Shown here: piece after piece, positions 1 to 48,000 of the stretch
Layout: each line of letters begins with the position of its first letter
Numbering within the stretch: the stretch's first letter is position 1
DNA from: Candidatus Doudnabacteria bacterium
GTDB taxonomy: Bacteria; Patescibacteriota; Doudnabacteria; UBA920
Assembly (NCBI GenBank): GCA_963837465.1
Contig: CAWINB010000004.1
Coordinates: 10,853 to 74,852 of the forward strand
DNA length: 64,000 nucleotides
Direction of reading: 5' to 3'
The notes under the pieces: generated by a model
Databases searched by the model: none
What the model was told of the DNA's origin: nothing
The model's input: only the letters and a program-made list of their open reading frames with translations
Position numbers and translations under genes: made by a program

Positions 1-226
1 CGGGGATCCGGTCGAGAAGTCCTGCCACTATCTGGCCGTCGCTGCGGGTCTCGATCACGTCGTTGTCCATGCCCACAGGTGAGGGACGGCGCTGTCGTTC
101 TGGTGATCGGGGACTGTCCAGCCCCTGTTGAACCGCTGACGACCCTGTCGAGGGGTTTCTCAAAGGCAACCCTTCACCACCCGTAAGCAACCGCGGGGCT
201 TGACCCGACCCCCGGTAGCGTTTCGG

Positions 227-1005: not shown

Positions 1006-1014
1006 CCCGGGCGG

Positions 1015-2835: not shown

Positions 2836-3214
2836 CCCTCCCTTATCTGTGTCCCTTGGTCCCAAGGTAACAAAACGGGAGGCATTCGTCAATCAACAGC
2901 AGCCTTCCGCTTCGCCGTCGGTCGCTAGCGGGGCTGATTCATGTTGACGAGCCCACCCAAGCAAGATCATCTGGCACTCTGATCGCATGCGTTCCTCCCG
3001 GCTGCGCAGGCGGCTCGGGACTTATCCGTCGCCGTGGACACACTAAAGCGCGGCGCGCTGCGGAGTTCGCCAAGTCGGATGTCGACTGGTACAACCCTGT
3101 CTTCGACCCGTCGTCTTCGGAAGCGGCGGCTGAACTGCTATCGCTCTGAACGAACTGATCGGGCTCGGATGGCCGTAGTACGAGGTAGTCGGAAGTCCCC
3201 CCTCCGACACGTAA

Positions 3215-3829: not shown

Positions 3830-4031
3830 GCCACCTCGAGGCGTTGTTGGTCACGATCGACAAGCTTAGGCACGGCACGACCGTAACCTTCCACGTGATA
3901 GAAAACAAATGTTCTATATCCGTGGCTCTGGAGCTAACTCCTGCATCTGCTGTCAGCTTCTTTATTCCTCTTGACGACGGCACCTCTGCTGTTAGGATGC
4001 ACAACAGATGTTTTGTTAGGTTCTAGGTTCG

Positions 4032-5679: not shown

Positions 5680-5689
5680 GCCATTGAGG

Positions 5690-6600
5690 CATAGCCCGGC
5701 GGCCGAACTGAATCCTCGAGAGGAGATCGAGCTCGACGGGGCATCGCTGTCCTTGGAGGGATTGGCCGCCGTCGTCAGTGGCGAAAGGTCGGCTGTGCTT
5801 GCCCCGCGGGCAACGGTGCGGATGCGGGCCGCGAGGAACGTCCTTGTGAAAGAGATGGAACGTGGAATCGCCGTGTATGGCACGACGACGGGAGTTGCCG
5901 AGCGCAAACGCGTGTCAGTCGACGGTCCCCGCCAATCGGCCTTCAATCGAAGGCTCATCTCGGGTCATCGCGTCGCTCAGGGGCCGCCAGCGTCGCCGTT
6001 AATCGTGCGGGCGGCGATGCTTTGCCTCGCGAACAGTCTCGCAAAAGGGATGTCGGGTGTCCGCCCTGAGATCGTGGAACTCTTTCTCGAAGCTCTAGAC
6101 GACGGGTTCGTGCCGCTGGTGGGCAGCCTCGGCTCTGTCGGCGAAGGGGACATCGGGCCGCTCGCCGACCTTGCTCATGGCCTGCTCGATCGCAGCGGGC
6201 TTGTTCTTGAAGCTGGCGAGGGACTCGCGCTCATGAATAGCAACGCCTTCTCCACGGGATGGTCGGCACTTGCGCTGCTCAGAGCCGAGAGGTTGCTCGA
6301 CTCAACGGACGTGGCTGCCGCAATGGATCTTGAGGCGTTCGCTGCGAATCTCAGCCCTTGGCACGACATCGTTGTGGCCTGTCGCTCCTCGCCGGGCATC
6401 GAGACGACGATCGGAACAGTTCGCCAGCTGCTCTCCGGAAGTGTCCTTTGGGAGCCCGGCGGGCGCGCAATCTGCAGGATCCCATGACATTCCGCTGCAT
6501 TCCTCAGGTGCATGGCGCAGCCGCGAAGCCCTCACCTACGCCCGGGCGATCGTCGAGGCGGAGATCAACGCAGTCCAAGGGAATCCGGTGGTGGTGGTCG
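5690..6600 (+). pseudogene. histidine/phenylalanine ammonia-lyase-like (aromatic amino acid lyase family), multiply frameshifted and truncated after about 300 aa
   Basis: IAVYGTTTGVAE, GSLGSVGEGDIGPLADLAH (position of the MIO-forming GSVGASGDLAPLAH), RCIPQVHGAA and AIVEAEINAVQGNPVVV lie in three different frames (ORFs 5585..6487, 6358..6828, 6270..6647). The C-terminal ~200 aa of a normal HAL are absent. Confidence 0.55.
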
Positions 6601-7839: not shown

Positions 7840-8820
7840 ATGAACAAACAAGAAACTTACCTTGCCGGCTGCAGGGTTAGCGGGAAGCTGCATATTGGCA
7901 ATTATTTAGGGCTGGTAAAAGATTTGCTGGAAACACAACAGCGCGACAATTTACAGCGCTTTTATTTCATTGCGGATTTACACGGATTAACCACGCCGTT
8001 TGTGCCCAAAGAAATGAAGGCAAACGCGCTGGATGTGGCGGCCAGTTATTTGGCGGCCGGGATTGACCCAAACAGGACGGTATTTTTTTTACAAAATCAT
8101 GTCCAGGAACACGCTTCTTTGGCCTGGATTTTTAACTGCATTACTCCGCTTGGGGAACTGGAAAGAATGACCCAATACAAAGATAAAACCTCCCAGCACA
8201 AAGAAAATATTAACGCCGGGCTGCTTACTTATCCCACTTTAATGGCAGCGGATATTTTACTATATAAGCCAACCTCAATCCCTGTAGGCGAAGATCAGGT
8301 CCAGCACGTGGAACTTGCCCGTTTTGCAGCGCGGAAATTTAACCATCATTTTGGCAAAACTTTTCCCGAGCCGCAAACCTATTTAACCAAACCCCTGCGC
8401 ATTATGTCCTTAACCGACCCAACAAAAAAAATGAGCAAGACCGGGGATGAGGCTTTGTTGCTTGATGATGAACCAAAGGAAATAATGAGAAAATTAAAAA
8501 AGGCTGTTACGGCCAGCGAGCCGGGTAAAAAATCCCCGGGTGTGGAAAATTTATTTTTATTAATGGAGCATTTCGGACAAAAAGAACAAGTTAACTATTT
8601 CCGCGACCAGCAAAAAAACAACACTCTTAAATTCAGTGAACTTAAGGAAACTTTGGCCAAAGATATTGCCGAATATTTTGTCGAATTCCGCGAAAAACGA
8701 AAAGAGCTTCTATCCAGACCCGAATACCTGGCCGAAGTCCTGGGAGAAGGCAGCCACAAAGCCAGGCAAGTTGCCAGCCAGACATTACTGGAAGTAAAAC
8801 AAAAAATCGGCCTGCTGTAG
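7840..8820 (+). CDS. trpS: tryptophanyl-tRNA synthetase
   Basis: Class I HIGH-type motif GKLHIGNY and KMSKS motif KMSKT. Length 326 aa. Confidence 0.85.
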   Translation: MNKQETYLAGCRVSGKLHIGNYLGLVKDLLETQQRDNLQRFYFIADLHGLTTPFVPKEMKANALDVAASYLAAGIDPNRTVFFLQNHVQEHASLAWIFNCITPLGELERMTQYKDKTSQHKENINAGLLTYPTLMAADILLYKPTSIPVGEDQVQHVELARFAARKFNHHFGKTFPEPQTYLTKPLRIMSLTDPTKKMSKTGDEALLLDDEPKEIMRKLKKAVTASEPGKKSPGVENLFLLMEHFGQKEQVNYFRDQQKNNTLKFSELKETLAKDIAEYFVEFREKRKELLSRPEYLAEVLGEGSHKARQVASQTLLEVKQKIGLL

Positions 8821-8833
8821 CGGGCCGATTTTT

Positions 8834-10218
8834 TTATTTTATGTGGTTAATTAAAGAAGTTACTTCGTCAATTTTTTGTTTCAGCAACTCGGCGCTGTCA
8901 GCCTCCACGTTTATACGCAACAGGTTTTGCGTATTGGAAGACCTTAAATTAAATCTCCAATTGGGATAGTTAAAATCATAACCATCTATGCTGTCTATTT
9001 GAGCATCGCTGTATTTGGATTTTACCGTTTCCAAAACATCCTGATTTTTAAACTCAAAATTTATTTCCTCGGAAATATAAAATTTTTCCCTAAGCGACTT
9101 TAAAACTTCTGAAAAAAGCTTGTCAGCGGCGGATAAAATTTCCAGCATGGCCAAAAACGGCATCAGTCCATTGTCCAGATAAAAATTATCCTTAAAATAA
9201 TAATGGCCGGAAGTCTCGCTGCCAAAAACTGCTCCTTCCTGAATCATCCGCTCTTTAATAAAAGAGTGCCCGGCTTTGGTCATTACCGCGATACCACCAT
9301 TTTGCTCAATAACATAATCTATAACCCGCACCACGCGCGTATCGTGCACAATTTTGCCGCCCGGATATTTTTTTAAATAATATTGCGAGAGCAAAGCATT
9401 AATATAAGCCGGGGTAACGAACTGGCCGTTTTCGTCAAAAAAGAAACAACGGTCGCCGTCGCCGTCCCAAGCCACCCCCAAATCCGGCTTCAGTTGCTTT
9501 ATGGACTCAATGGTTTCCGGCCGGTTGGTTGGCAGCAGAGGATCCGACGGTCCTTTGGGAAAATTTCCGTCCAAATGGCCATTCAAAACTTTTATAAATT
9601 CTATTGGCAACAAGGTTTTTAATTTTTCTATGGCCGGATTAGCCATACCAAAATTGGCATTGGCCACAACCTTAAAAGCCTTAAACTTGCTAACATCAAA
9701 AGTCTTAAGTACGTGCTTATAGTAAGCGTCTTTGATGTCCTGTTTTTGAGCCGCACCTTTTTTATTGGAAATTGGAAATTGGAAATTGGAAATTACCAAA
9801 TCTCTAATCTCATATATCCCGCTGTCCCCGGAAACGGGAGCCGATTTCTCCTTCACCAATTTTAAGCCGCCATATTGTTTGGGGTTATGGCTGGCCGTGG
9901 CCATAATGCCGCCATCCAGGTCCAGATGAACAACGCCAAAATACATTTGGTCCGTAGAAATTAAACCCAAATCCAACACATTCACCCCGGCATTGTAAGC
10001 CCGCGCTCGGCCGCGTCCCTGAATTCTTTCCCGCATAAGCGCATATCATGACCCACTGCAATGTTTAATTTTCGCATCGGCCCGTCTTTGAGATCATTCA
10101 TTTGCAATAACTTTACATAAGCCTGCGCAATCTTATAAACCAACTCGGCATTAATCTGCGTAGGATAAATTCCCCGGATGTCATAGGCTTTAAAAATTGA
10201 CTGATCTATTTGTTCCAT
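8834..10218 (-). CDS. phosphomannomutase/phosphoglucomutase (alpha-D-phosphohexomutase), frameshift near 10020-10040
   Basis: N-terminus (MEQIDQSIFKAYDIRGIYP ... IAVGHDMRL) is in ORF 9982..10218. The remainder (TASHNP phosphoserine loop, GDGDR metal loop) is in ORF 8834..10036. Confidence 0.75.
9764..9797. repeat. heptanucleotide tandem repeat (GGAAATT)x4.5 inside the phosphomannomutase CDS
   Basis: attggaaattggaaattggaaattggaaatt. On the coding strand it encodes ISNFQFPISN. The unit length is not a multiple of 3. Confidence 0.8.
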
Positions 10219-24097: not shown

Positions 24098-26563
24098 TTA
24101 GCGGCTCAGCACCCGGGGAGCCACCAGACTGCCGATAGGAAGGGATAAATCGGCGGCATTGGCCGGCACAACCCAGGAAAAGTCATTGTCATGATGCCAG
24201 GTGTTGTATACCGACAGGGAAGGATAGCCGTGCAATTGGCTGTCGTTGCCAACCCAGTAAACCGTGCCTTTTTCGTTAATATCCAACCCGGACAAATGCT
24301 GCGACTTGCCATTGTTAACAAGCGGACCCAGCGGCATCTCATTCAGCTCCGGCGTTGTTACCACCAGCACAGAGCTGAATTTAAAACCCAACGATAAAAA
24401 TACCTGGCTGGAAGTAAAGCCATACTTATTGCCTTCGGAAATCAGGTAGACGGTCGGGTCAACAGGATCTTTAACCAAAGCGCCGTTGCCGGGGAGAAGC
24501 AAGTTACCTTCCGGCAAAACCACATCCGAAGCATTAGCCGTAAACGCGTCCGTCCAGTCATAGCCGTAAGAAAATAAAATCCCCGGACTGGTTATGCCGT
24601 GCCGCACTCCATTTTGCACCAAGTAAAAAGTCCCGTTATCATTAATCAAGTATTGATCGGTTGCTGATACCGGCAAAACCGACGCGCCGTTCGGCACCAC
24701 CGAGCCTGTAGCCACGTACTGCGCGTAACTACCGGAGCTATTAAAAGCGAAAGCGGAGTAAGAATAAGCAACGTCGTTGGTTAAACCGGTGTCAGTGTAT
24801 GATTGTCCGGTTCCGTTGTAAACCTGGGTGCCGTCAGTCGGGCTTATCGGAGCGCTGTTGCCTACCTTCCGCACAATAACGGTCGCGGTCCAACCGGAAC
24901 TCGCTATGGGATTTACCCAAGTAATTAAGGCTTGTCCATTGCCGGGCTGTACGGAGAAATTAGTAATAACTGTACTCCCCGCGGAAAAACCACCACCACC
25001 ACCACCACCTCCACCACCACCACCACCACCACCTCCACCACCACCTCCACCTGAAGAAGCTGCCTGGGTAGAGGCCGAAACAGTTGTTGAAGTCGCGGAA
25101 GTGTTGCCTACGCCATCAAAAGCGTCAATATAATAGCTGTAGCCGGTGCCGGCGCCAAGGCCAGTGTCATTGTAAGAAGCGACGGAACTGGTGGCAATAT
25201 TAGCGCCATTTCTGTAAATATCATATCCCGCGAGGCCGGAGCCGCCGGTATCAGTGCTGGTAGCCCAGGATAAATCTATTTCCGAAGTTGAAACAGCAAT
25301 GGCCGAAAGGCTGGCGGGGACAGAAGGCGCCACATTATCAATCGTTACCGTGGTTTGGGCAGTAGTAGTCCCTGCGCTATTGACTGCGGTTAATGTATAT
25401 GTGGTAGTGGTAGCCGGGGAGACGGAAACCGAGCCTGTGGAAGTCGCTGTTTGATTGCCTAATCCATTATTAATGCTGACAGTGGTGGCGGTGGCGGTAG
25501 TCCAGGATAAAGTTGAGGTGGAAGAGGGACCAATAACCGAGGGCGACGCGATAAAAGAACCGATAACAGGCTTTACCGGCACGATTGTTAAAGCGCTGCC
25601 GGTGGCAAAAATTGTGATTGGGTCCGAGCTTGCGTCACTGCCGAGCACGCCTGAAAACTGAACAGACGAAGAAGTCGCCAAGGTGGAAGTGGCGGCGGTG
25701 AAACTTATAACTGACAGCACTCCGCTGCCAATGGAATTCTCGTTGAACCCCGAATCTACGCAGCGATAATCACCGGCAGCGACAAGATTACATGAAGTGC
25801 TTTTGCCCGCGGCAATCGATGCCGCGCCGTTGGCGGTAGACGAAGCGCTAAGCGCGGTAGGATCAAAAAGCATATCCCATTGCAGCATGGTAGTGCTGGC
25901 TAACGCCTGGCTGACATCAAGGGAAACATTCAGCGGGGTGGAACTGCCTGTGGCCACAGTACCGCCGGACAGCGACAGTTGCGGTGAATTGGAAGGCTGG
26001 GCAATGGTCACGGTGCCGCTATTTCCCAGCGCGGGAAGACTATCATAAACGGGCGAGGTTCCGGTGGCCGTAACATTGCTTATTGAAACTACTGAAGAGG
26101 TAGCCGGAGTACCGCTGGCAACAGACACAATACCTATTAAGACAATCGGGCTGGATGTGGGTATGGGATTGGAGTCGTCTCCGGAAATCTGGCAATTATA
26201 AACAGATTGGGAAACTGCCAAACAGCCCACGGTTTTGGCGCTGCCGCTTAGCGCCGCGCCCGGACTTATGCTAAAGCCCTGTAAAGCAGTATTGTCAATG
26301 GTTATCTGAAAACCTATGGCCGCCGGGGTTTCACTGGCCAAGCTGGCATCCATGGTCATATTCAGTTCCCCCGGATATCCCACGGCAGCTGGAACCGGCG
26401 GATTATTTAAAGTTAAAGTCACGGGGCCAAAAGCAAAAACCGGCTTAAAAAAGCCAATAACCAAAAAGGTTGTCGCTACGCAGGCAAGCAAAAGTGCCCA
26501 TATTTTAAAGCTTTTATAGTAAAAGTTTAGTTTCAATGACGGATGACAATATAAATTATTCAA
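24098..26563 (-). CDS. large secreted surface protein (N-terminal beta-sandwich domain, FN3-like domains, poly-Gly tract, C-terminal ~50-aa repeat module)
   Basis: N-terminal hydrophobic anchor/signal. FN3-like segment IDLSWATSTDTGGSGLAGYDIY. A run of 21-23 Gly. Three C-terminal repeats of type YLISEGNKYGFTS..VFLSLGF. Confidence 0.6.
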   Translation of the reverse strand: MNNLYCHPSLKLNFYYKSFKIWALLLACVATTFLVIGFFKPVFAFGPVTLTLNNPPVPAAVGYPGELNMTMDASLASETPAAIGFQITIDNTALQGFSISPGAALSGSAKTVGCLAVSQSVYNCQISGDDSNPIPTSSPIVLIGIVSVASGTPATSSVVSISNVTATGTSPVYDSLPALGNSGTVTIAQPSNSPQLSLSGGTVATGSSTPLNVSLDVSQALASTTMLQWDMLFDPTALSASSTANGAASIAAGKSTSCNLVAAGDYRCVDSGFNENSIGSGVLSVISFTAATSTLATSSSVQFSGVLGSDASSDPITIFATGSALTIVPVKPVIGSFIASPSVIGPSSTSTLSWTTATATTVSINNGLGNQTATSTGSVSVSPATTTTYTLTAVNSAGTTTAQTTVTIDNVAPSVPASLSAIAVSTSEIDLSWATSTDTGGSGLAGYDIYRNGANIATSSVASYNDTGLGAGTGYSYYIDAFDGVGNTSATSTTVSASTQAASSGGGGGGGGGGGGGGGGGGGGGFSAGSTVITNFSVQPGNGQALITWVNPIASSGWTATVIVRKVGNSAPISPTDGTQVYNGTGQSYTDTGLTNDVAYSYSAFAFNSSGSYAQYVATGSVVPNGASVLPVSATDQYLINDNGTFYLVQNGVRHGITSPGILFSYGYDWTDAFTANASDVVLPEGNLLLPGNGALVKDPVDPTVYLISEGNKYGFTSSQVFLSLGFKFSSVLVVTTPELNEMPLGPLVNNGKSQHLSGLDINEKGTVYWVGNDSQLHGYPSLSVYNTWHHDNDFSWVVPANAADLSLPIGSLVAPRVLSR
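24966..25060. repeat. homopolymeric-codon tract (CCA/CCT on + strand) encoding poly-Gly inside ORF 24098..26563
   Basis: ccaccaccaccacctccaccacc..., about 95 nt of GGN codons on the coding strand. Confidence 0.85.
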
Positions 26564-26614
26564 TCACCAGCTAATTTTAACAAATTTTTTAAATATCTTA
26601 AATAGTACCGCAAA

Positions 26615-28600
26615 CTACACGCCGGGCCAAAACATCTGGGGAACAAAGTCGTTTACTGAATTTTGACTGCTATTGTATCCGCTGTCGCGGGAATTATTAA
26701 CGCAATTCTCGTTGCTGTTGGTAATGGTGTTGTTGTTGCCGTTGACATTGTTGTTGTTATTCTGGTTGGAGCTGTTGGTGCCGGAGCTGGTATCGTTATT
26801 GGTGTTAGTATTGTTGTTACAGGAACTGGAATCGTTGTCGCAGTTACCAGTGCTTTGGGTTTGGGCGGGATTTACCGAAGAGACCGCTGGACAGTTGTTC
26901 GCGGCTTCCGCCTGGGCCTGACTTTGCGCCTGAGCCTGGGCTTGATTCTGGGCTTGATTCTGGGCATCCTGCTGGCTGACAGAACTGGTGGCAGTAGCGG
27001 TAGCAGTGGCCGTGGCTGAAGCAGTTGAACCGCCGGCACACTGAGCGTTGGCCGTTGCGGTAGCCGTAGCAGTGTCGGTAAAGGTAGCGGGGGCGGCCTG
27101 GGTGACGGTTACGGTTCCGCAGCTGGCCTGGTTTCCGGAAGAGTCACTTAAGGAAACCGGGTAGTTGCCCGCGGCATTAAAAACCACGGACAATCCACTC
27201 ACACTGCCGCCAAGAGCGCTTAAGCTATAATTTCCACTGCCCCCGCTGCCTTGGAAACTTGCGGAGCCCCCAACATCAATGTTAAGAGAAGATGTCGGCT
27301 GGCAGCTTAAGCCAACAGGAGCCGGACACTCGGCTTGCGCCTGACTTTGCGCCTGAGCCTGGGCTTGATTCTGGGCTTGATTCTGGGCATCCTGCTGGCT
27401 GACAGAACTGGTGGCAGTAGCGGTAGCAGTAGCCGTAGTTGCGGTTCCGTTCGAACAATTGGCCGTTGCGGTAGCCGTAGCAGTGGCGGTAAAGGTAGCG
27501 GGGGCGGTCTGGGTGACGGTTACGGTTCCGCAGCTGGCTGTTTGGCCTGAACTGTCAGTGGCTGTAACTGGATAGCTGCCGCTGCTATTGTAAGTGGCGG
27601 TAAGGCCGCTGATATTGGAAGCGCCGGAAGCGTTAAGAGTATAAGGGCTTTGGCCGCCGCTCACCAAAAAGCTGACGCTGCCCCCCGAACTGATATTAAG
27701 GGCGCTCGTTGGCTGGCATTGTAAAGGACTAATGACGGGGTTATTTATGTTGATTGTGACCTGCGGGGAAGTTCCCACTAAACCCTGGGAGTCGGTGGCT
27801 TGGGCGGTTAAAATATGGGTGCCGTTGCTAAAACCGGTGGAATTCCAGGAAATCGAATAAGGCGCGACACTGGCAGTGCCCAACAAAGAACTGCCATCCA
27901 GATAAAACCCGACACTGGAAATTGTGTCCCCGTTTGCCGGCGTAGCCGAAGCCGTAATGGTAACAGATGGTCCGGAAACCGAGGCTTGACTGCTTGGGGC
28001 CGTTATGGAAACTGTCGGAGGGGTGTTATTGGACTGATTTTGCCGCACCCCAATGCTGCCATTATTGGCGGTCATTTCTATTGAGTTGGCCGACACGTCC
28101 GCCGCTGACAGGTTAGAAAATTGCAATGGGATACTGGTAGCCAACGTAGTAGCGGTTAAAGTCACGGTAATAGTCCCGAGTGTTCCCTGGCCTATGGTAT
28201 TTTCATTAAACCCGACAATCAGGCAGCGGAAATCGCCCGGAGAAGGAGTGGCGCAGTCGCCGGATTTTCCCGCCGCGGTGGCGGCTGCTCCGTCGGCGTT
28301 CCAGGCAATGGAAGCCACATCGGCCGTATTGTACAGAATATCCCAGCCAAGCGCGGCCGGCTGTTCGGGAGCATTGCTGGGATTAATATAAATATTCAAA
28401 TTAACCGAAGCGCCAGGAGTGACACCGGAAGCGGAATCCATACTCAGGACAATTGAGCTGTCGGCACGGGCTAAATTAAAGGGGCCAAATAATTGCTGCA
28501 GGGTAAAAGCTGTCAAAAAACCCAATACCAAACAAGCGGTTAAATTGCGCCAGGTAGGGGCGGGAAATAAGGCAGGCTGATTTATTTGGTGGCTGTCCAT
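26615..28600 (-). CDS. secreted surface protein with N-terminal domain shared with the 821-aa protein, tandem ~140-aa repeats and Asn-rich tail
   Basis: Signal/TM region. GWDILYNTADVASIAW...GDFRCLIVGFNENTIGQG is similar to the 821-aa protein N-domain. Internal duplicated module CQPTS..LNI..GGS.SF...GG...Y.L...G ... QNQAQAQAQSQAQAE. Confidence 0.55.
   Translation of the reverse strand: MDSHQINQPALFPAPTWRNLTACLVLGFLTAFTLQQLFGPFNLARADSSIVLSMDSASGVTPGASVNLNIYINPSNAPEQPAALGWDILYNTADVASIAWNADGAAATAAGKSGDCATPSPGDFRCLIVGFNENTIGQGTLGTITVTLTATTLATSIPLQFSNLSAADVSANSIEMTANNGSIGVRQNQSNNTPPTVSITAPSSQASVSGPSVTITASATPANGDTISSVGFYLDGSSLLGTASVAPYSISWNSTGFSNGTHILTAQATDSQGLVGTSPQVTININNPVISPLQCQPTSALNISSGGSVSFLVSGGQSPYTLNASGASNISGLTATYNSSGSYPVTATDSSGQTASCGTVTVTQTAPATFTATATATATANCSNGTATTATATATATSSVSQQDAQNQAQNQAQAQAQSQAQAECPAPVGLSCQPTSSLNIDVGGSASFQGSGGSGNYSLSALGGSVSGLSVVFNAAGNYPVSLSDSSGNQASCGTVTVTQAAPATFTDTATATATANAQCAGGSTASATATATATATSSVSQQDAQNQAQNQAQAQAQSQAQAEAANNCPAVSSVNPAQTQSTGNCDNDSSSCNNNTNTNNDTSSGTNSSNQNNNNNVNGNNNTITNSNENCVNNSRDSGYNSSQNSVNDFVPQMFWPGV
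26900..27440. repeat. tandem direct repeat (~430-bp period) within ORF 26615..28600
   Basis: Near-identical ~100-bp stretches at ~26905-27003 and ~27335-27432 (gcctgggcctgactttgcgcctgagcctgggcttgattctgggcttgattctgggcatcctgctggctgac...). Confidence 0.7.
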
Positions 28601-28782
28601 GAAAAAATTGGCTTGATGGTAAATTTAGAAACATATGATTTTTATTTTATTTTTACAGTTATTGGCTATAAATAAGCCATAAACTAACATGCAATACATT
28701 TATGATAATATAAAAAAAGAACTTTCGCAATAGGGGAAAAGAGGCGGCCGCCGGGATGAAAACACCGGCGGCCTGGCAAAGA

Positions 28783-29286
28783 TTAGGGATACGGGATAGT
28801 TGCAATACAGAACGCTGAATAGGCGCTCTCGTTGCTCTTGTTATCCACGTCCACGGCGGTCACTACATAATAGTAGGTCTGCCCCGCTGTAACAGCCGCA
28901 TCAGTATACGTTATCGCGCTCCCGACGGTGGGTGCCAGAAATGTATACGGCCCCACGACCGATACCGTAGAACGGTATACCTTATATGTACAACAAGTCA
29001 CACCATCATCATCGGTGCTCGCCACCCAATTAAGGGTCACATAGTGCGCCGGGGTTACGACGCACGGACCGCCCAGTGCGGCATTTATAACACGCTGCAC
29101 CATGATAACGTTACAGTTGTTGCCAACAATTTGCGCCGTACATAGCGCGCCGTTGGCCATGTTCATGGCCATTTGGACGTCCAAGATGTTAACCTGGCCA
29201 TCCGAATTGAGATCACAGGCGTTGAGCGCCTGCGCGTTAGCCGGAGCGGCTAACAGGATTGCTGCGATCAGTATCTTCTTTTTCAT
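28783..29286 (-). CDS. small secreted protein with dockerin-like Ca-binding repeat and FN3-like domain
   Basis: Signal peptide MKKKILIAAILLAAPANA. CDLNSDGQVNILDVQMAMNMANG fits the dockerin/EF-hand loop D-x-N-x-D-G-x-V-N-x-x-D. Then a beta-rich FN3-like domain. GC higher than neighbours. Confidence 0.45.
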   Translation of the reverse strand: MKKKILIAAILLAAPANAQALNACDLNSDGQVNILDVQMAMNMANGALCTAQIVGNNCNVIMVQRVINAALGGPCVVTPAHYVTLNWVASTDDDGVTCCTYKVYRSTVSVVGPYTFLAPTVGSAITYTDAAVTAGQTYYYVVTAVDVDNKSNESAYSAFCIATIPYP

Positions 29287-29382
29287 CCCACTCGTCCTCC
29301 TTGGACGAATAAGCTATTTTACCAAATCATCCAAAAATAGACAACCGCCAAAAAAGCCGCTCTAATCCGCTGATTATAACTA

Positions 29383-29412
29383 AAACCCCTCCGGCGCGCG
29401 AGGGGTTTTAGG
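29383..29412 (-). terminator. hairpin AAAACCCCTC-cggcgcgc-GAGGGGTTTT
   Basis: 10-bp perfect stem with A/T flanks, 3' of the 957-aa gene. Confidence 0.6.
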
Positions 29413-29430
29413 GTTTATGTTGATTTGACT

Positions 29431-32304
29431 TTATTGCAACCGGCTATCGCCTATTGTCATCGGGGTTAGGATAGACAGGCGGAAGTCCCATTGGTTGGCC
29501 GGGACTATCAGGTTTTGCTGGCCGCCGTTTTGGATGAAGGTGTTCCAGTTGGGAACCGGGATGAGGCCGGTGGAATCGACAAAGTATATGGTTGAACCGC
29601 TCTTTATCCAGCTGCCCCAGGGATGCTGGCTGTATCTGGTTGTTACGGTATAGCCTGAATTCTGCAGACCGGGATTGGCGACCGGAATCACGTTGCTAAA
29701 ACTAAAACCCAGACCCAAAAATGCCGCGGCATTGGAAAATGGAGTTTCCAAATTTTTGTAGACAATATAAACCGTGCCGCCCTGGGAAATTAGTTCGCCG
29801 TTTGGGTAAGTGCTGGCGCCCAATACGCCCCCGCCGGGATACTGCAGGCCACTGCCTGGGTTGGAACCGGAATTGCCCAGGCTGAAATTCTGCGTGGCGC
29901 TGTGGCCATAGCTGTCGTTAACCGTAACGGTAAATGTCTGATAGCCGCCGTAAACCGGAGCGCCTGAAATCAATCCGCCCGAAGACAGCGACAGGCCGCC
30001 TGGAAGACTGCCGCCGCTTAAGGTGTAATAGTAGGGAGCCTGGCCGCCGCTTACCTGCAACTGGTAGTTGTAATATTGTCCTACTGTCATTAAGGGCAAA
30101 GGAGTCGTGGTTGTAAAATACAAACCGCCGTTGCCGTTACCACTGCCGTTATATCCCGCGGTCGTTACATATAAACTGGCGCAGCCGTTGCCGCTGCTTT
30201 GGCAAACCGTGACGGTGCTGGTGCCGGCGCTGGTAGAAGGATAGAGATTTAAGACATTGCCGGAAATGGCGGCGCTGACTATGGCAGGATTGGAGTTGGT
30301 GGAAATATAGTAACTGCCGCTGCCGTAAATATTAACGCTGTCAGTTTGTCCAGACGTCAGCGTCAAACTGGTCTGACTAAGCGTAATGCTGCCGCTATAA
30401 TAACCGGTGCCTACAGTTACATACAAGGTGCCGCAACCTCCGCCGCTGCTTTGGCAAACGGTAATACTGCTGTTACCCGCGGTCTGGCCGTACAAGTTCA
30501 GGCTGCTGCCGGAAATGGTGGCGGTAACTACGTAAGAATTGGAGTTGTTGGAAATATAGTAACCATTATAGCCGTTGTTATAGGAGCTGGAAATGACAAC
30601 GCTGGTATTCTGGCCCGTGCTTAAGCTGACGGAACCGGGACTGAAATAAACCGCCGAACCGCCGCTGCCGCCGTTAACCGTGACGTAAACGCTGGCGCAG
30701 CCGGAGTAACCGGAGCTTTGGCAAACGGTTACCGTGCTGCTGCCCGATTCAAGGGCGCTTAAAAATAAACTGCTGCCGGAAATGGTGGCGCTGACCACGG
30801 ACAGGTTGGAGTTGGTGGAAATATAATAACTGCCGCTGCCGCTGATAATAATATTTGAACTCTGGCCCTGGTTTAAGCTTAAATTGGTTTGGCTTAAATA
30901 AAGACTGCCGCTGGATCCTGAGCCATTTACAGTTACATAAATACTGCCGCACTGGCTGGAACTGCCTCCGCAGACTATTACTGTGGAGCTGCCGGAGCCT
31001 AAGGCATATAAAGTAATTACCGAGCCGCTGACGCTGGCCAATGCTACTCCCGAATTGCTGTTGCTGGAAATATACAGGTAGCCGCCGCTGTAATTATAAG
31101 CGCTGACTGTGGCGCTTTGGCCGGTGGACAAGTTCAGGCTGGTCTGGCTAAGTGAAAGGCCGCCGGTTCCAGTACCATTAACTGTCACATAAACACTGGC
31201 ACAGACAGAAGATCCGGAGCTCTGACAAACGGTAATCGTACTGCCGCCCGTATAAATTCCGGTCAGCAGCAGGGTACTGCCCGAAATAGAGGCGCTGACC
31301 GCGGAGGAGTTGGAATTGCTGGATATGTAATAACTGCCGCCGCCGCTGATAATGACATCTGAACTCTGGCCCTGGCCCAAGTTCAGGCTGGTCTGGCTGA
31401 GCGAGAGCGTGCCGCAGCCGTAATAACCGCAGGAGCCCAAAGAAACCGTAACGTACAAACTGACACACTGGCTGTTTGAATTTTGACAGACGGAAATTGT
31501 GGTATTGCCGGCCGCCAAGGCGCTGACCAAAACACTGCTGCCGGAAATAGAGGCGCTGGCCACGGAGATATTGGAATTGTTGGAAATATAATAGTTGCCG
31601 TAACTGTTCCCGTTGTTATAAATAGCAACATTGGAAGTTTGACCCTGGGATAAACTCAGGCTGGTCTGGCTTAAAGAAAGACTGCCGCTGCCGCAGTTAT
31701 AGCTGTCATATATACAAGAAGAGCCGGTGACAGTAACATATAAAGTGGCGCAAACCCCGTCGGCGCCGCTTGAACAAATGCTGATACTGCTGCTGCCGGA
31801 CGTCTCGCCGTAAACAGCAATCTGGCTGCCGCTAAGAGTTACCGAAGCTATAGAGGAATTGGAATTGCCGGAAATATAGTAACTGCCGCTGCCGTAAACA
31901 GCTATGGAGGAGCTTTGCCCCACGCTTAAACTTAAACTGGTCTGGCTAAGCGACAACCCGTAAGAGGTACCGCAATTATAAGTACAGCCTTCATTGTTAC
32001 CGTTGTTCACCACTTGCTGGCCTGCTACCGTGGCGGTAATTTGCGAACTTACGGAACCGACATCCGTGGTAAAATTACCGTTAACATCGGTAGTACCGGT
32101 AATGGTAGTCGGCAGGCTGCTGCCGGAAGGAGTGAAGTTTATGACCACGGCCGCGTCAGGTTGACCCCCGCTTATGGTTATGGAGTTGTCGCTACCTGAA
32201 CTATAAACACTCATGGTAGGATAATAGGCCAAGACAGGAGCCGCTGATCCTATTAAAAGGCTGACAGATAAGATCAAAATCAAGTTTTTTACCAGCTTCT
32301 TCAT
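29431..32304 (-). CDS. giant secreted adhesin-like protein with >8 tandem Ig-like (Big_2-type) repeats, a putative Ig domain, and the shared C-terminal repeat module
   Basis: Signal peptide. About 85-aa repeats LSLSQTSLSL..GQ.....I.G.GSYYIS.NSN.S......SGS.L.L...GSSTITVCQSSG..CASLYVTV. Then GGQAPYYYTLSGGSLPGGLSL. C-terminal GTVYIVYKN...FLGLGFSF and GSTIYFVDSTGL modules. Confidence 0.6.
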   Translation of the reverse strand: MKKLVKNLILILSVSLLIGSAAPVLAYYPTMSVYSSGSDNSITISGGQPDAAVVINFTPSGSSLPTTITGTTDVNGNFTTDVGSVSSQITATVAGQQVVNNGNNEGCTYNCGTSYGLSLSQTSLSLSVGQSSSIAVYGSGSYYISGNSNSSIASVTLSGSQIAVYGETSGSSSISICSSGADGVCATLYVTVTGSSCIYDSYNCGSGSLSLSQTSLSLSQGQTSNVAIYNNGNSYGNYYISNNSNISVASASISGSSVLVSALAAGNTTISVCQNSNSQCVSLYVTVSLGSCGYYGCGTLSLSQTSLNLGQGQSSDVIISGGGSYYISSNSNSSAVSASISGSTLLLTGIYTGGSTITVCQSSGSSVCASVYVTVNGTGTGGLSLSQTSLNLSTGQSATVSAYNYSGGYLYISSNSNSGVALASVSGSVITLYALGSGSSTVIVCGGSSSQCGSIYVTVNGSGSSGSLYLSQTNLSLNQGQSSNIIISGSGSYYISTNSNLSVVSATISGSSLFLSALESGSSTVTVCQSSGYSGCASVYVTVNGGSGGSAVYFSPGSVSLSTGQNTSVVISSSYNNGYNGYYISNNSNSYVVTATISGSSLNLYGQTAGNSSITVCQSSGGGCGTLYVTVGTGYYSGSITLSQTSLTLTSGQTDSVNIYGSGSYYISTNSNPAIVSAAISGNVLNLYPSTSAGTSTVTVCQSSGNGCASLYVTTAGYNGSGNGNGGLYFTTTTPLPLMTVGQYYNYQLQVSGGQAPYYYTLSGGSLPGGLSLSSGGLISGAPVYGGYQTFTVTVNDSYGHSATQNFSLGNSGSNPGSGLQYPGGGVLGASTYPNGELISQGGTVYIVYKNLETPFSNAAAFLGLGFSFSNVIPVANPGLQNSGYTVTTRYSQHPWGSWIKSGSTIYFVDSTGLIPVPNWNTFIQNGGQQNLIVPANQWDFRLSILTPMTIGDSRLQ

Positions 32305-45072: not shown

Positions 45073-48000
45073 TTATCTTAAGTTGTTAATAAAACTTCTG
45101 GTTAGAGTGTCTAGTGCCCCATTATCGGCCTTAATCCCAATTTGCGTTTTGTACTTGTTTTGGAAACTCTTTAAAGCTGCTTTAGTCGCAAGGCCAAACA
45201 AAGTAGTTTCGTGTCCAGGAGAACCAATTGCTCCATTTGGGGCAACAGCGAAGTTATTATTGTTTAAGAACTGCTGCAAAGCCGTAACGTCCACCCCTTT
45301 GCTTAAGTAGCCAAGGTTTCGGGTAAAGATTATGGTGGCAGGAATGAGGCCAGTAGATTGGTTAGTTGCGGCCGGAGCTGGACTGGACAGAGCGGTTTGG
45401 CCCAGGACCTGGCTGGCTGTTTCTGACTCTATGGTATACGGGGCTTTGGAGCCTCTTAGTACAGTTAATTTCTCCCCACTTTGGCTTTGATATTGCTGGA
45501 AGCTCAAGAAAGTATCAAAAGGATATAAGCCATTAGGCTTAACCAGGTAGATAGTCGGGTTGCCTTTAAACTGTAATAGCTGGCCATCGTGGACATTGTA
45601 TGGTAGGACTACGGTAACAGAGGGTGATATATTGGTTGTTGGTGGAGTTGGTAATATTAGGTATGGAATGGATGTCGGAGTCGAAGTTGGCGATGGTGCC
45701 ACAGTTCCTGCCAAGGTCAGGGTGGTGAATGTATAATCTCCGGAAACATTAAACTGTAAGTTAGGGTCTTTAACCCTAAAATGGTACAAAGTGGCCGGGT
45801 TTAGGCTGGTTAAGATAAGGCTATGGCTTGTTGCGGGTGTAGAACTAGAAACAGTTGAACCGTAAGAGGAGGTTGTGCCATAGTCTACAGAGGAGCCAAT
45901 TTGATAATTGGTTTGCCAGGACACAATTATTGAAGTAGGTGTTGTATTGGAAACCTGGACGTTGCTGAAACTGGCATAAATAGCACCTCCGCCTCCGCCG
46001 GAACTCACTACATTCGTGGAGCAGGATACGGACACATTGGTAATGTTAGATGAGGCTACCGTACCGCTGCCATTAGTTACGTTACAGGTTTGGCCTGATG
46101 GCTGAGTTAAAACCGTAACATTGTATGTGCCGCCGGTGCTGGTGGCTGTGGCGAAAATAAAGCTAGTATTAGTTGTAGTGCTTATATTATTTCCGCCATT
46201 ATTCTGTAAAACAACAGTCCCAGTTAAGCCAGAAATATTACCGCCAATTGTGTAGGTAGGATTATTGGAACACGAAACTGAAACGTTGCTCACGTTCGCG
46301 GAAGATACTGTGCCACTACCATTGGTGACACTACAGGTTTGACCGCTAGGCTGGGTCAAAACAGTTACAGAATAACTGGCACTATTGTTTAAAGCTGTGG
46401 CAAAAATAAATGAGCCATTGGTGGAAGTGCTGTAGTTATCTCCCCCGTTATCCTGGAGGACCACGGTGCCGGACAGGCCAGAAATGGTGCCACCGATGGT
46501 GTAGGTTGTAGAAGAAGATTGATAAGCGCCAATATCGGGGGATGAACTGTAAAGGACTTGAGTACCGCTAGAATTTTTATAGAGATAAACCGGATTTCCC
46601 GAAGACCTAGTTATTGGACTAGCCAATGTTATAACATTGGTTGAATAATTAATTGAGGAGATTTGTACTGTAGTGGCTGAGCCTACCCTAATCCAGTCGG
46701 CATTTACTATCCCTGAACCATCGGAAAAGAACCCGGCGTCATTAACAACCAACGAAGTTCCAGAGCCTGTGTCAGAGTTCGCTACTGTTGTAAGGTAAGT
46801 TCCAGCGCCGCGGGCTGGGGAAGAATTTTGCAGTTGAAAATTCCCTGATGGTGGAGTGGCTACGTTTGTCAAAAGTGGATCTTGGTTAAGTACAACTCCT
46901 GATTCTGAAGACAAACTGCTCTGCCATGAGCCAGAATAGCCTTGGTTAAAAACAAGTGTGTTACCACTAATTGTAGGCGAAGAGCTGGCATCAGTTAAAA
47001 TATCATAATATCCATTTACAATATCGTTGTACAGAAGATTATTAAGCCACGCCCCACCGGTAGCTCCTACTCCAGGCATATAGTTCCAAGAAGCTGTATA
47101 GTCTGGTGGTAAGACTGTATTAATAATATCATTATTATAAACTTTTGATTGTGGTATGCCCTGACTAAGTACGAAGTAACCACCGCTTCCATAATAGGTA
47201 TTAAATCTGGTAATTACTCCTGTTGGATTATCAACAGTTGGAGTCTCGGCCTGTAGTAAAGAAAAATGAGTATTGTACTCAGGGGTGTTATACATGACGT
47301 TATTCTCCATCAGCAGATGAATTAATGGCGTCCCTGTAACGTCCCATGTTTGCATTCCGTCAAGATGGGCGGTTGTTGTCGCCGCATATGAATATGTTCC
47401 AGTAGTTCCGGCAAATGGGGTATAAAGAGTCAAGGATGTGCTACTGCTTATTGATAAAATAGAATATACAAGGCTACCAATTGAAATTGCGTATACATTA
47501 CCACCAGCCCAACTGGAATCAAATACTGTTCCCGATGCCCATGTGACTGTAGTGCTGCCATTAGTAACATTCACAGTACCCATGGTTGAAACAAAATCTG
47601 TGCTGGCGCTATCATGCCAAGTATTATTGCGCAACACATCGTAAGAGCCATGAACATGCGTGTAATCTAAAACATGCGAAATATCGTTTGAGTCAATCAA
47701 ATTATAGTTTCCATATACATCAATTCCATATGTACCGGACGCGTTATACCCTGCCCAAGAAATTGTGTTGTTGGAAATTGTACAGTAATTCGAATTATTG
47801 CTTGGGTTATACGGCGATTGGTTAAATCCTACACCAAATCCTCCGGTATAGCTTATAATATTATTGCTGACAATGACGTGTGATGCGGCGATAAGCTGTA
47901 CACCTCTCAACCCAGCCGCATTATGATTACCAATATAAAATCCTTGAATTGCAATATAATTTTGGCCTGACACTACAAAAGCATTAACTAGCACGGTGTC

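What the first reader, a model, noticed from the sequence alone, without database searches (positions are those of the whole stretch)
24098..32304. Co-oriented cluster of four secreted surface proteins with a shared C-terminal repeat module and a cohesin/dockerin-like pairing
Four minus-strand genes (821, 661, 167 and 957 aa) all start with signal peptides. The 821-aa, 957-aa and the distant 1655-aa protein end with two or three copies of a ~50-aa module (G.VY.V..G..Y.F.S...F.SLGF.FS.V..V). This is probably a wall-anchoring or S-layer-binding unit that I cannot name. The 821- and 661-aa proteins share an N-terminal beta domain, and the 167-aa protein carries a canonical dockerin-type Ca-binding loop (DLNSDGQVNILD). 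This may be a cohesin-dockerin-like assembly system on the cell surface of this lineage, perhaps host-attachment related.
Basis: partly seen in the sequence, partly recalled or inferred. Interest (0 to 1): 0.55.

Follow-up and report, generated by a model that had tools for sequence, protein, structure and literature searches.

The report
Cohesin–dockerin surface island in Saccharibacteria
An ultrasmall, probably parasitic bacterium (Saccharibacteria) carries four neighbouring genes for secreted proteins that appear built to plug into one another through cohesin–dockerin type connectors and to stick to a cell wall through an unnamed repeat with the fold of the EccB repeats; it is a new variant of a known assembly principle, and no binding has been shown.

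Summary
Four minus-strand genes (821, 661, 167 and 957 aa) encode secreted, Ser/Thr/Gly-rich proteins.

- **Cohesins:** the N-terminal domains shared by p821 (two copies) and p661 (one copy) are true cohesins. Pfam scores p821 above threshold, and a subfamily profile hits solved cohesins at E 7e-12.
- **p167:** it has a signal peptide, a dockerin-like module and an FN3 domain. The module has one canonical Ca loop, a degenerate second segment and four invariant Cys.
- **Gene linkage:** p167-like genes sit next to cohesin genes in 8 of 13 genome loci, against 0 of 69 control loci, across Acidobacteriota and Saccharibacteria. One syntenic Saccharibacteria genome has a cohesin plus canonical dockerin protein at p821's position.
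- **C-terminal module:** there are 3 copies in p821 and 2 in p957. The 1655-aa protein has no significant copy. No Pfam or NCBIfam model covers the module. It models at pLDDT 95. Its only structural relatives in the PDB are the EccB repeat domains, which have been proposed to bind peptidoglycan. It is C-terminal in 82% of 143 relatives and matches 3,781 protein clusters.

Most likely this is a wall-anchored scaffoldin-like display system. Binding, wall attachment and any host role are inferred, not shown.

The parts
24098..26563 (-). p821: scaffoldin-like surface protein (signal peptide, 2 cohesins, Ig-like, FN3, poly-Gly linker, FN3-like, 3 EccB-repeat-like modules)
   Evidence: ORF; domains; coordinates. 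The start may instead be the in-frame TTG at 26536.
25994..26425 (-). p821 cohesin 1 (aa 47-190)
   Evidence: Cohesin-subfamily HMM E 2.6e-31. Pfam Cohesin reports 2 stretches in the N-terminal 285 aa, 28.4 bits against a gathering cut-off of 24.1.
25577..25993 (-). p821 cohesin 2 (aa 191-329)
   Evidence: Subfamily HMM E 6.8e-43. 40% identical to the p661 cohesin.
25082..25321 (-). p821 FN3 domain (aa 415-494)
   Evidence: Pfam fn3 27.3 bits, above the cut-off of 25.
24989..25051 (-). p821 poly-Gly linker (aa 505-525), encoded by a 21-copy GGT trinucleotide array
   Evidence: Tandem Repeats Finder: period 3, 21 copies, 90% matches. Homologues also have Gly-rich linkers before the module.
24122..24655 (-). 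p821 C-terminal triple EccB-repeat-like module (aa 637-689, 693-749, 759-814)
   Evidence: HMM E 1.2e-90. AlphaFold2 pLDDT 95.3, pTM 0.88. The top 11 Foldseek PDB hits are all EccB. No Pfam or NCBIfam family covers it.
26615..28600 (-). p661: second cohesin-bearing secreted or membrane-anchored protein (cohesin, Big_7, two ~130-aa repeats, Asn-rich tail); it has no EccB-like module
28034..28462 (-). p661 cohesin (aa 47-189)
   Evidence: Subfamily HMM E 2.9e-49. Pfam Cohesin 18.8 bits, covering positions 3-138 of 139.
28783..29286 (-). p167: small secreted dockerin-like plus FN3 protein
29056..29223 (-). p167 dockerin-like module (aa 22-77): canonical Ca loop DLNSDGQVNILD plus helix, then a degenerate second segment; four invariant Cys (C24, C49, C58, C75)
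   Evidence: Pfam Dockerin_1 18.3 bits, below the cut-off of 22.9. 20 of 34 family members hit Dockerin_1. All 18 PDB hits of the profile are dockerins or dockerin-bearing cellulosomal proteins, but only through profile positions 1-19. Invariant residues.
28792..29049 (-). p167 FN3 domain (aa 80-165)
   Evidence: PDB 3mpc_A (Fn3-like protein), E 7.7e-6; Foldseek names it as from Clostridium thermocellum. Foldseek 5g56 and 3mpc, E about 1e-5.
29431..32304 (-). p957: Ser-rich fibre-like protein with several Big_2 / pilus-N-like repeats of ~85-90 aa (five found by a motif search), a He_PIG Ig domain and 2 EccB-repeat-like modules
29467..29799 (-). p957 C-terminal double EccB-repeat-like module (aa ~836-946), matching modules 2 and 3 of the triple unit
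   Evidence: Triple-module HMM E 3e-14, HMM positions 65-182. blastp against the p821 C-terminus: 32% identity over 157 aa, E 7e-8.

Best explanation
This is a surface-protein island in a Saccharibacteria (Patescibacteria/CPR) genome, lying between the gdh and efp genes. It combines a non-cellulosomal cohesin–dockerin connector set with a non-covalent cell-wall anchor typical of this lineage.

**Proposed roles**
- p821 acts like an anchoring scaffoldin. It has a signal peptide and two N-terminal cohesins held away from the cell by Ig/FN3 domains and a poly-Gly linker. Its C-terminal triple repeat has the fold of the EccB repeat domains and would fasten it non-covalently to the cell wall.
- p661 displays a third cohesin.
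- p167 is the small secreted partner. Its Ca-dependent dockerin-like module would plug into one or more of these cohesins and so display its FN3 domain.
- p957 is an Ig-repeat fibre held on the wall by two copies of the same anchor module.

**Shown here**
- The domain identities.
- The conserved triple-module unit and its predicted fold.
- The conserved linkage between genes for the dockerin-like protein and genes for cohesins.
- Synteny of the island in three Saccharibacteria-type genomes.

**Inferred only**
- That p167 binds these cohesins.
- That the module binds peptidoglycan or another wall polymer of the cell itself.
- That the assembly serves adhesion.
For: **Cohesins**
- Pfam PF00963 scores 28.4 bits (above the 24.1 cut-off) for p821 and 18.8 bits over the full model length for p661.
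- A profile of 16 such domains matched 38 PDB sequences, at least 35 of them cohesin modules. The best are 2vn5_A and 1g1k_A at E 7e-12, aligned end to end.

**Dockerin-like module**
- Dockerin_1 is the only family hit of p167 below E 0.01. 20 of 34 family members hit it, best E 2.7e-5.
- All 18 PDB hits of the profile are dockerins or dockerin-bearing cellulosomal proteins.
- The predicted loop-helix, helix, FN3 layout fits.

**Gene linkage**
- Cohesin genes lie within 4 kb of p167-like genes in 8 of 13 genome loci, against 0 of 69 control loci (Fisher p 3.6e-8; the loci are not phylogenetically independent).
- In an independent metagenome sample the figure is 11 of 27 loci of at least 6 kb.
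- The window holds exactly 3 cohesins and 1 dockerin-like module.

**Synteny**
- Locus L009 (a Ca. Saccharibacteria MAG) is syntenic with the window. At p821's position it carries a 323-aa protein with a cohesin and a canonical Dockerin_1 (41.6 bits, positions 1-55 of 57).
- Locus L166 repeats the layout seen here: a p957-like protein ending in 2 modules, then p167-like, small cohesin, p661-like, and a two-cohesin protein ending in 3 modules.

**Anchor module**
- The unit is 45-67% identical across 38 proteins whose N-terminal parts differ.
- 3,781 cluster representatives match at E <= 1e-3 and 351 at E <= 1e-30.
- The unit ends within 10 aa of the C-terminus in 117 of 143 relatives.
- It is attached to varied passenger domains: FN3, beta-helix, CAP, PA14, LamG.
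- The model is confident (pLDDT 95.3). The top 11 Foldseek PDB hits are all EccB (E from 4.6e-5).
- The Pfam EccB model is the only weak sequence hit.
- The EccB1 repeats resemble the phage wall-binding protein PlyCB and were proposed to bind peptidoglycan (PMC4769845).
- No LPXTG, SLH, LysM or other known anchor is present (C-termini read).
Against: **No binding test.** No co-folding tool was available.

**The dockerin-like module is atypical.**
- p167 is below the Pfam dockerin threshold.
- Its second segment lacks Ca ligands.
- The match to solved dockerins covers only about 19 residues.
- The model of this part is only moderately confident (block pLDDT 57-85).

**The gene linkage is partial.**
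- About half of the p167-like genes have no cohesin gene within 8 kb.
- In Acidobacteriota these genes often sit in exosortase/EPS contexts, so the family may have another primary partner.

**The fold match to EccB is local.**
- TM-scores are 0.23-0.29.
- Sequence-level support is marginal (E 0.09; EccB1 at E 3-4).
- Peptidoglycan binding by the EccB repeats is itself only a hypothesis, according to the paper.

**The four genes are probably separate transcription units.** Each has its own promoter-like site, and hairpins sit between the genes.
Confidence: 0.55

Rival explanations
1. Same proteins and the same cohesin–dockerin pairing, but the EccB-repeat-like modules are not self-anchors. They would instead target the wall of another cell, such as the host bacterium of the epibiont. 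In that case p821 and p957 are adhesins whose C-terminal ends grip the host.
For: - The only structural relatives are EccB of Actinobacteria and small uncharacterised proteins of actinobacteriophages: Rhodococcus phage Weasels2 (TM 0.75 normalised to the target) and Streptomyces phage LukeCage.
- Cultivated Saccharibacteria grow on Actinobacteria (PMC10633639).
- EccB repeats resemble PlyCB, a phage lysin subunit that binds the target cell wall.
- Some relatives fuse the module to a beta-helix/GH141-like domain or a CAP domain.
Against: - The unit is placed at the extreme C-terminus in 82% of relatives.
- It is far better conserved than the variable N-terminal parts.
- Several paralogues per genome carry it.
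- Together these are the usual signature of a self-anchoring module. An adhesin tip would be expected to vary with the host.
- The proteins would also then lack any means of staying on the producing cell.
Confidence: 0.25
2. The four genes are simply a cluster of independent surface adhesins or fibrillar proteins. The p167 loop is a generic Ca-binding loop, and there is no specific binding between p167 and the cohesin-like domains.
For: - p167 is below the dockerin gathering score, and only one Ca loop is present.
- The genes appear to be separately transcribed.
- About half of the p167-like genes elsewhere have no cohesin gene nearby.
- Many non-cellulosomal cohesin and dockerin modules have no known partner (Peer et al. 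2009, as cited in PMC10066038).
Against: - The dockerin-like gene and cohesin genes are linked across distant phyla: 8 of 13 loci against 0 of 69 controls.
- The island layout is conserved in three Saccharibacteria-type genomes.
- The syntenic position in L009 holds a cohesin plus canonical dockerin adaptor-type protein.
- The profile of the module hits only dockerins or dockerin-bearing cellulosomal proteins in the PDB.
Confidence: 0.2
3. The cluster is a miniature cellulosome-like system that degrades polysaccharides.
For: - Cohesin and dockerin modules are best known from cellulosomes.
- The closest solved relatives of the p167 FN3 domain are cellulosomal: 3mpc (Clostridium thermocellum) and 5g56 (CtXyl5A).
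Against: - None of the four proteins has a catalytic or carbohydrate-binding domain.
- The only dockerin-like protein in the 64-kb window carries just an FN3 domain.
Confidence: 0.03

Closest known systems
Anchoring scaffoldins of cellulosomes (for example SdbA/OlpB of Clostridium thermocellum and ScaE of Ruminococcus flavefaciens; named from general knowledge, not tested here)
   Same: - A secreted protein carries N-terminal cohesin modules and a C-terminal module that fixes it to the cell wall.
- A partner protein carries a Ca-binding dockerin-type module.
- A related genome has a cohesin plus dockerin adaptor-type protein.
   Different: - No enzymes are involved.
- The anchor is neither SLH nor sortase/LPXTG but an EccB-repeat-like triple module.
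- The partner's dockerin has only one Ca loop plus a Cys-stabilised degenerate second segment, and its cargo is a single FN3 domain.
- The host organism is an ultrasmall Saccharibacterium.
Non-cellulosomal cohesin- and dockerin-like modules (Peer et al. 2009, FEMS Microbiol Lett 291:1, cited in PMC10066038; also the dockerin-bearing giant proteins of Omnitrophota)
   Same: Cohesin and dockerin modules occur in organisms that do not degrade cellulose and are proposed to act in adhesion or surface assembly.
   Different: - Here the two module types are encoded side by side.
- That linkage is conserved across phyla and is tied to a specific small protein family (dockerin-like plus FN3, about 167 aa).
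- I found no paper in the searched library that reports cohesin domains in Saccharibacteria.
Repeat domains R1-R4 of EccB (ESX type VII secretion, Actinobacteria) and the PlyCB wall-binding subunit of phage lysin PlyC
   Same: - The units are about 55 aa with a small beta-sheet and two short helices.
- EccB chains are the only significant structural hits.
- The Pfam EccB model is the only weak sequence hit.
   Different: - There is no transmembrane helix, no central core domain and no type VII secretion context.
- The modules form a tandem C-terminal triple or double unit on unrelated passenger proteins.
- Sequence similarity is marginal.
- Wall binding is unproven even for EccB.
Non-covalent wall-anchoring repeats of monoderm bacteria (SLH, CWB2, LysM, GW, choline-binding repeats, PG_binding_1)
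   Same: - The logic is the same: 2-3 tandem copies, a terminal position, higher conservation than the passenger, and use by many different secreted proteins in one genome.
- The neighbouring 1655-aa protein uses PG_binding_1 in the same C-terminal position.
   Different: There is no sequence match to any of these families, and the predicted fold is different.

Membership tests
Cohesin (Pfam PF00963) | Score at or above the curated Pfam gathering cut-off (24.1 bits) | tested here: met
   - The p821 N-terminal 285 aa scores 28.4 bits in 2 stretches. The p661 domain scores only 18.8 bits but covers positions 3-138 of 139 and is 40% identical to p821 cohesin 2.
- The hit is lost when full-length p821 is scanned.
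Cohesin (Pfam PF00963) | Sequence homology to cohesins of solved structure over the whole domain | tested here: met
   The profile of 16 domains (A4) matched 38 PDB sequences, at least 35 of them cohesin modules. The best are 2vn5_A and 1g1k_A at E 7e-12, aligning profile positions 4-138 of 142.
Cohesin (Pfam PF00963) | Nine-stranded beta jelly-roll fold | not tested
Cohesin (Pfam PF00963) | Binds a dockerin | not testable with these tools
   No complex prediction or experiment was available.
Dockerin type I (Pfam PF00404) | Score at or above the gathering cut-off (22.9 bits) | tested here: not met
   p167 scores 18.3 bits, E 0.0028, matching only profile positions 22-54 of 57. 20 of 34 family members hit at E < 0.01, best 2.7e-5.
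Dockerin type I (Pfam PF00404) | Two tandem ~22-residue segments, each a Ca-binding loop (D-x-N/D-x-D-G…D) followed by a helix | tested here: not met
   - Segment 1 (aa 25-46) is canonical.
- Segment 2 (aa ~50-72, consensus I-x-G-x-G-V-C-N-V-V-V-V-Q-R-V-x-N-A-A-L-G) keeps the helix, which is predicted at aa 60-70.
- Segment 2 has no Asp/Asn ligands. It is flanked by invariant Cys residues.
Dockerin type I (Pfam PF00404) | Cohesin partner encoded in the same genome | tested here: met
   Three cohesin modules lie within 3 kb in the window. The linkage is conserved in other genomes.
EccB (Pfam PF05108, type VII secretion core component) | N-terminal transmembrane helix, central beta-sheet core flanked by four repeats, and a type VII secretion gene context | tested here: not met
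   Only the repeat fold is shared. The modules are a C-terminal tandem unit on passenger proteins. The Pfam EccB hit is E 0.091, 11.9 bits against a cut-off of 27. None of the window ORFs scanned against Pfam hit a type VII secretion family.
EccB-repeat / PlyCB-like fold (structural class, not a curated family) | A unit of about 55 aa with a small beta-sheet plus two short helices, recognised by fold comparison | tested here: met
   - The AlphaFold2 model has pLDDT 95.3. Each module has three assigned strands, two short helices and short strand or bridge residues between them.
- The top 11 Foldseek PDB hits are all EccB, E 4.6e-5 to 1.6e-2, but with global TM-scores of only 0.23-0.29.
Known wall or S-layer anchors (SLH, LysM, CWB2, choline-binding, PG_binding_1, LPXTG sortase signal) | Match to the family model, or an LPXTG motif followed by a hydrophobic tail | tested here: not met
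   p821, p661, p167 and p957 have no such Pfam or NCBIfam hit. The C-termini end in …APRVLSR, …FWPGV and …GDSRLQ. Only the separate 1655-aa protein has a near-threshold PG_binding_1.
Cellulosome | Dockerin-tagged carbohydrate-active enzymes assembled on a scaffoldin | tested here: not met
   The cluster has no catalytic domain or carbohydrate-binding module. The only dockerin-like protein in the window carries an FN3 domain. The rest of the genome could not be examined.

The most novel reading that the evidence does not exclude
The EccB-repeat-like triple module may be a general, so far unrecognised cell-wall-binding domain of Patescibacteria. It would be used by thousands of secreted proteins to bind either their own wall or the wall of actinobacterial hosts; the fold is otherwise seen only in actinobacterial EccB and in actinophage proteins. 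In this Saccharibacteria lineage it would anchor a cohesin–dockerin display system, possibly shared by lateral transfer with Acidobacteriota, that builds the contact surface of the epibiont.
Probability: 0.2. Interest if true: 0.7.

Novelty: new variant of a known kind. Interest (0 to 1): 0.5.

Why it matters
**Host attachment.** How ultrasmall epibiotic bacteria attach to and recognise their hosts is largely open. So far mainly type IV pili have been implicated, and essential envelope proteins of unknown role have been reported (PMC10633639).

**Testable parts list.** This island offers three cohesins, one dockerin-like ligand, and an anchor module that can be produced on its own.

**Annotation gap.** The module matches 3,781 protein clusters but has no Pfam or NCBIfam model. 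Naming it and finding its ligand would annotate many large "hypothetical" surface proteins of Patescibacteria at once.

**A new dockerin form.** The small dockerin-like plus FN3 protein family, linked to cohesin genes in Acidobacteriota as well, extends non-cellulosomal cohesin–dockerin biology to a one-loop, disulfide-containing form of dockerin.

Tried and rejected
- **Full-length Pfam scans** missed the cohesins. They appeared only when the N-terminal parts were scanned alone.
- **Single-sequence PDB searches** were uninformative for the cohesin domain and the module. Profiles were needed.
- **The word-index homologue search with the p661 cohesin domain** returned nothing, so that search was wasted.
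- **A single-module profile against the PDB** gave spurious hits to designed "Pizza" beta-propellers through a 17-residue hairpin motif. EccB1 scored only E 3-4, so the link to EccB rests on fold, not sequence.
- **phmmer of the 14-module protein P0159 against the PDB** found nothing.
- **The Foldseek search with p167** was dominated by the FN3 domain and said nothing about the dockerin part.
- **The viral contig scan for the module** found nothing.
- **Metagenome scans:** the scan with the cohesin alignment found nothing, and two alignments were too divergent to build search patterns.
- **The window's own 868-kb contig** could not be fetched. The organism is therefore inferred from synteny with L009.
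- **The idea that the 1655-aa protein carries the module** was rejected.
- **The essential "dockerin" protein SEML1_0315 of Southlakia** is a 927-aa protein and does not resemble p167.
Full report
**Observation**

The four minus-strand ORFs exist as described: 24098-26563 (821 aa), 26615-28600 (661 aa), 28783-29286 (167 aa) and 29431-32304 (957 aa). All four begin with a hydrophobic, signal-like segment. This was judged by eye only. p167 and p957 look canonical, p661 may be a signal anchor, and the start of p821 is ambiguous (TTG 26563 or in-frame TTG 26536). The proteins are rich in Ser, Thr, Gly and Ala and poor in charged residues. Each gene has a promoter-like site upstream, and GC-rich hairpins sit in the gaps after gdh, p957 and p167. 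They are probably separate transcription units, except perhaps p661-p821, which are only 51 nt apart.

**Organism and locus**

The window belongs to an 868,218-bp public contig. It is collinear with L009, a MAG labelled Candidatus Saccharibacteria. The flanking housekeeping genes (efp, ssb, rpsF and others) are 60-83% identical, and the surface genes lie between them in the same order. A third genome fragment, L166, has the same island between gdh and efp. I therefore treat the window as Saccharibacteria. This is inferred from synteny, not from a marker-gene phylogeny.

**N-terminal shared domain: cohesin**

- p661 residues 60-178 and p821 residues 203-320 are 40% identical (E 2e-18).
- Scanned alone, the p821 N-terminal 285 aa hits Pfam Cohesin at 28.4 bits (cut-off 24.1) in two stretches. 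The p661 domain scores 18.8 bits but spans the whole model. Full-length scans miss both hits.
- A profile of 16 such domains from the window and related loci matched 38 PDB sequences, at least 35 of them cohesin modules. The best are the Clostridium cellulolyticum scaffoldin cohesins 2vn5_A and 1g1k_A at E 7e-12, aligned end to end.
- The window has exactly three cohesin modules: two in p821 and one in p661.

**p167**

- It has a signal peptide, a 56-aa dockerin-like module and an FN3 domain. The closest solved FN3 relatives are 3mpc and 5g56.
- It belongs to a tight family of ~165-aa proteins that are 45-60% identical.
- D25 and D36 of the loop and four Cys (C24, C49, C58, C75) are invariant; the other loop positions (L26, N27, D29, G30, V32) are at least 90% conserved.
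- Dockerin_1 is the only Pfam hit of p167 below E 0.01, but it is below threshold (18.3 against 22.9 bits). 20 of 34 family members hit it.
- All 18 PDB hits of a profile of the module are dockerins or dockerin-bearing cellulosomal proteins. The match runs only through the first 19 positions, which are the Ca loop and the start of the helix.
- Read directly, the second half (I-x-G-x-G-V-C-N-V-V-V-V-Q-R-V-x-N-A-A-L-G) repeats the helix pattern of the first half (…V-N-I-L-D-V-Q-M-A-M-N-M-A-N-G) but has lost the Asp/Asn ligands.
- AlphaFold2 predicts helices at aa 34-44 and 60-70 with moderate confidence.
- It is therefore a dockerin derivative with one Ca site, not a canonical dockerin.

**Are the two module types linked?**

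- Among genome loci fetched with the p167 family, 13 carry the dockerin-like part. Eight of these have one to three cohesin-bearing genes within 4 kb.
- None of the 69 loci that matched only through FN3 has a cohesin gene (Fisher p 3.6e-8). The loci are not independent, and L002 and L003 are near-duplicates.
- The positive loci are labelled Bryobacterales, Terriglobia, a Treponemataceae MAG and Saccharibacteria.
- Pfam confirms Cohesin above threshold in three of those neighbouring proteins (37.0, 34.3 and 24.4 bits).
- In an independent sample of 80 metagenome loci (GC 0.53-0.64, so not Patescibacteria-like), 21 have a cohesin neighbour, 11 of them among the 27 loci of at least 6 kb.
- The linkage is therefore strong but partial.
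- In L009 the gene at p821's position encodes a cohesin plus a canonical two-segment dockerin (Dockerin_1 41.6 bits, positions 1-55 of 57). That is an adaptor-scaffoldin architecture and shows a real cohesin–dockerin network in this lineage.
- L166 repeats the window's layout, including a two-cohesin protein that ends in three modules but is split by a frameshift.
- The p167 family is mostly acidobacterial. Only one of the 13 genome loci that carry the dockerin-like part is labelled Saccharibacteria. The cassette is therefore probably lineage-specific in Saccharibacteria and may have been exchanged laterally. I did not test the direction of any transfer.

**C-terminal module**

- p821 has three copies (aa 637-689, 693-749, 759-814) and p957 has two (aa ~836-946, matching modules 2 and 3 of the triple unit).
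- The 1655-aa protein has no significant copy. It ends in a near-threshold PG_binding_1 domain.
- The triple unit is conserved as a block. 38 proteins are 45-67% identical to it while their N-terminal parts differ, and none has a Pfam annotation over this region.
- A profile finds 3,781 cluster representatives at E <= 1e-3 and 351 at E <= 1e-30. The profile includes some linker columns, so the weakest hits are less certain.
- Of 143 strong relatives, the unit ends within 10 aa of the C-terminus in 117, follows the N-terminal signal region in 8, and forms arrays of four or more modules in 15.
- Passenger domains vary: FN3, Ig, beta-helix/GH141-like, CAP, PA14, LamG, DUF3472.
- One relative is annotated as coming from a Patescibacteria bacterium. 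One contig carries three consecutive giant proteins that each end in the unit.
- No NCBIfam model matches.
- AlphaFold2 gives a confident model: pLDDT 95.3, pTM 0.88. Each module has three assigned strands, two short helices and short strand or bridge residues between them.
- The top 11 Foldseek PDB hits are all EccB chains of mycobacterial ESX systems (E 4.6e-5 to 1.6e-2). Global TM-scores are low (0.23-0.29), which I take to mean the repeats are arranged differently in space.
- The Pfam EccB model is also the only weak sequence hit, both for the p821 module (E 0.091) and for the 14-module relative P0159 (39.3 bits summed).
- The EccB1 repeats are ~50-57-aa units with a four-stranded sheet and two helices. 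They are similar to the phage wall-binding protein PlyCB and have been proposed, without experimental data, to bind peptidoglycan (PMC4769845).
- In the viral structure library the best matches are small uncharacterised proteins of Rhodococcus and Streptomyces phages.

**Most likely mechanism**

- p821 is an anchoring-scaffoldin analogue. Its cohesins face outward on an Ig/FN3/poly-Gly stalk, and its triple module holds it on the wall.
- p661 presents a third cohesin.
- p167 is the Ca-dependent plug-in ligand that displays an FN3 domain.
- p957 is an Ig-repeat fibre anchored by the same kind of module.
- Shown here: the domain identities, the fold prediction, the gene linkage and the synteny.
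- Inferred only: binding, the wall ligand and the biological role.
- The main rival on a sub-point is that the modules bind the host wall rather than the cell's own wall. A second rival is that there is no specific pairing at all.
- A cellulosome-like degradative role is very unlikely, because the cluster has no enzyme.

**Comparison with known systems**

- The cluster works like cellulosomal anchoring scaffoldins and belongs with the non-cellulosomal cohesin/dockerin modules surveyed by Peer et al. 2009 (cited in PMC10066038).
- The N-terminal domains are members of the cohesin family.
- p167 is dockerin-derived but fails two membership tests: the score threshold and the second Ca segment.
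- The anchor module is not a member of the EccB family. It shares only the repeat fold.
- In the searched library, no paper links cohesin domains or EccB-like domains with Saccharibacteria or Patescibacteria. One paper notes an essential dockerin-domain protein in Southlakia, but that is a 927-aa protein unlike p167.

**Verdict**

The finding is real, and its interpretation is largely right at the level of domain identity. It is a new variant of a known kind. It is moderately interesting as a testable surface-assembly system in an epibiotic lineage, and because it exposes a large, unannotated family of probable wall-binding modules.

Noticed in passing
window 1-6500: GC is 0.59-0.69 here, against 0.37-0.53 in the rest of the window. 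The ORFs are fragments of genes typical of free-living, high-GC bacteria: a short-chain dehydrogenase, a truncated nitroreductase, a TetR regulator, an SBP_bac_5 gene split over two frames, and an N-terminal fragment of an aromatic amino-acid lyase. This could be decaying DNA acquired laterally, possibly from an actinobacterial host, or an assembly chimera.
   Followed up: partly
window 24989-25051: The 21-residue poly-Gly linker of p821 is encoded by a 21-copy GGT trinucleotide array with 90% matches. It is a likely slippage-prone tract that could vary the stalk length. Homologues also have Gly-rich linkers just before the anchor module.
   Followed up: partly
window 45073-50040 (minus strand): The 1655-aa secreted protein has several FN3 / purple-acid-phosphatase-N-like domains. 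Its C-terminus is a near-threshold PG_binding_1 domain (22.8 against 23 bits) rather than the EccB-like module. It is a second type of probable wall anchor in the same genome.
   Followed up: partly
L009 12132-13103 (+): In the syntenic Saccharibacteria MAG, a 323-aa protein carries an N-terminal cohesin and a canonical two-segment C-terminal dockerin (GDFNDDNTINSLD… DINKDGIINSFD…). This is an adaptor-scaffoldin-like architecture. The same locus also has an extra small (~210 aa) cohesin-only protein at 8546-9187 that the window lacks.
   Followed up: yes
L085 1-16594: Three consecutive very large proteins (1032, 2331 and 2197 aa) each end in the same triple EccB-like unit. These are paralogous arrays of module-anchored giant surface proteins.
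   Followed up: partly
L167 203-4204; L002/L003 6585-8504: In high-GC loci the p167-like gene sits directly after VanZ-like genes: in L002 and L003 (Bryobacteraceae) these are LamG_3/VanZ genes, with a polysaccharide-export (Wza-like) gene nearby. In L167 (unlabelled, GC 0.61) it also follows an exosortase EpsH gene and a glycosyltransferase gene. The family may be tied to exopolysaccharide or exosortase systems in those organisms.
   Followed up: no
BFVD entries A0A1I9SA71 (Rhodococcus phage Weasels2) and A0A345MGB2 (Streptomyces phage LukeCage): Small uncharacterised actinophage proteins (115 and 102 aa) are the best viral structural matches to the module (TM 0.75 and 0.70 normalised to the target). 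They could be wall-binding proteins with the same fold.
   Followed up: no
window 54059-56590 (+): This is another large secreted protein (843 aa, with a signal peptide). It has a DUF4430 hit and a Ser/Thr-rich tail ending in a basic, hydrophobic C-terminus. Local GC is 0.53.
   Followed up: no
window 24098-26563: Scanning full-length p821 against Pfam reports only fn3. The two cohesins appear only when the N-terminal 285 aa are scanned alone. The exact 821-aa product is also absent from the public protein collection, so the gene was probably called with a different start. Routine annotation would miss the cohesins.
   Followed up: yes
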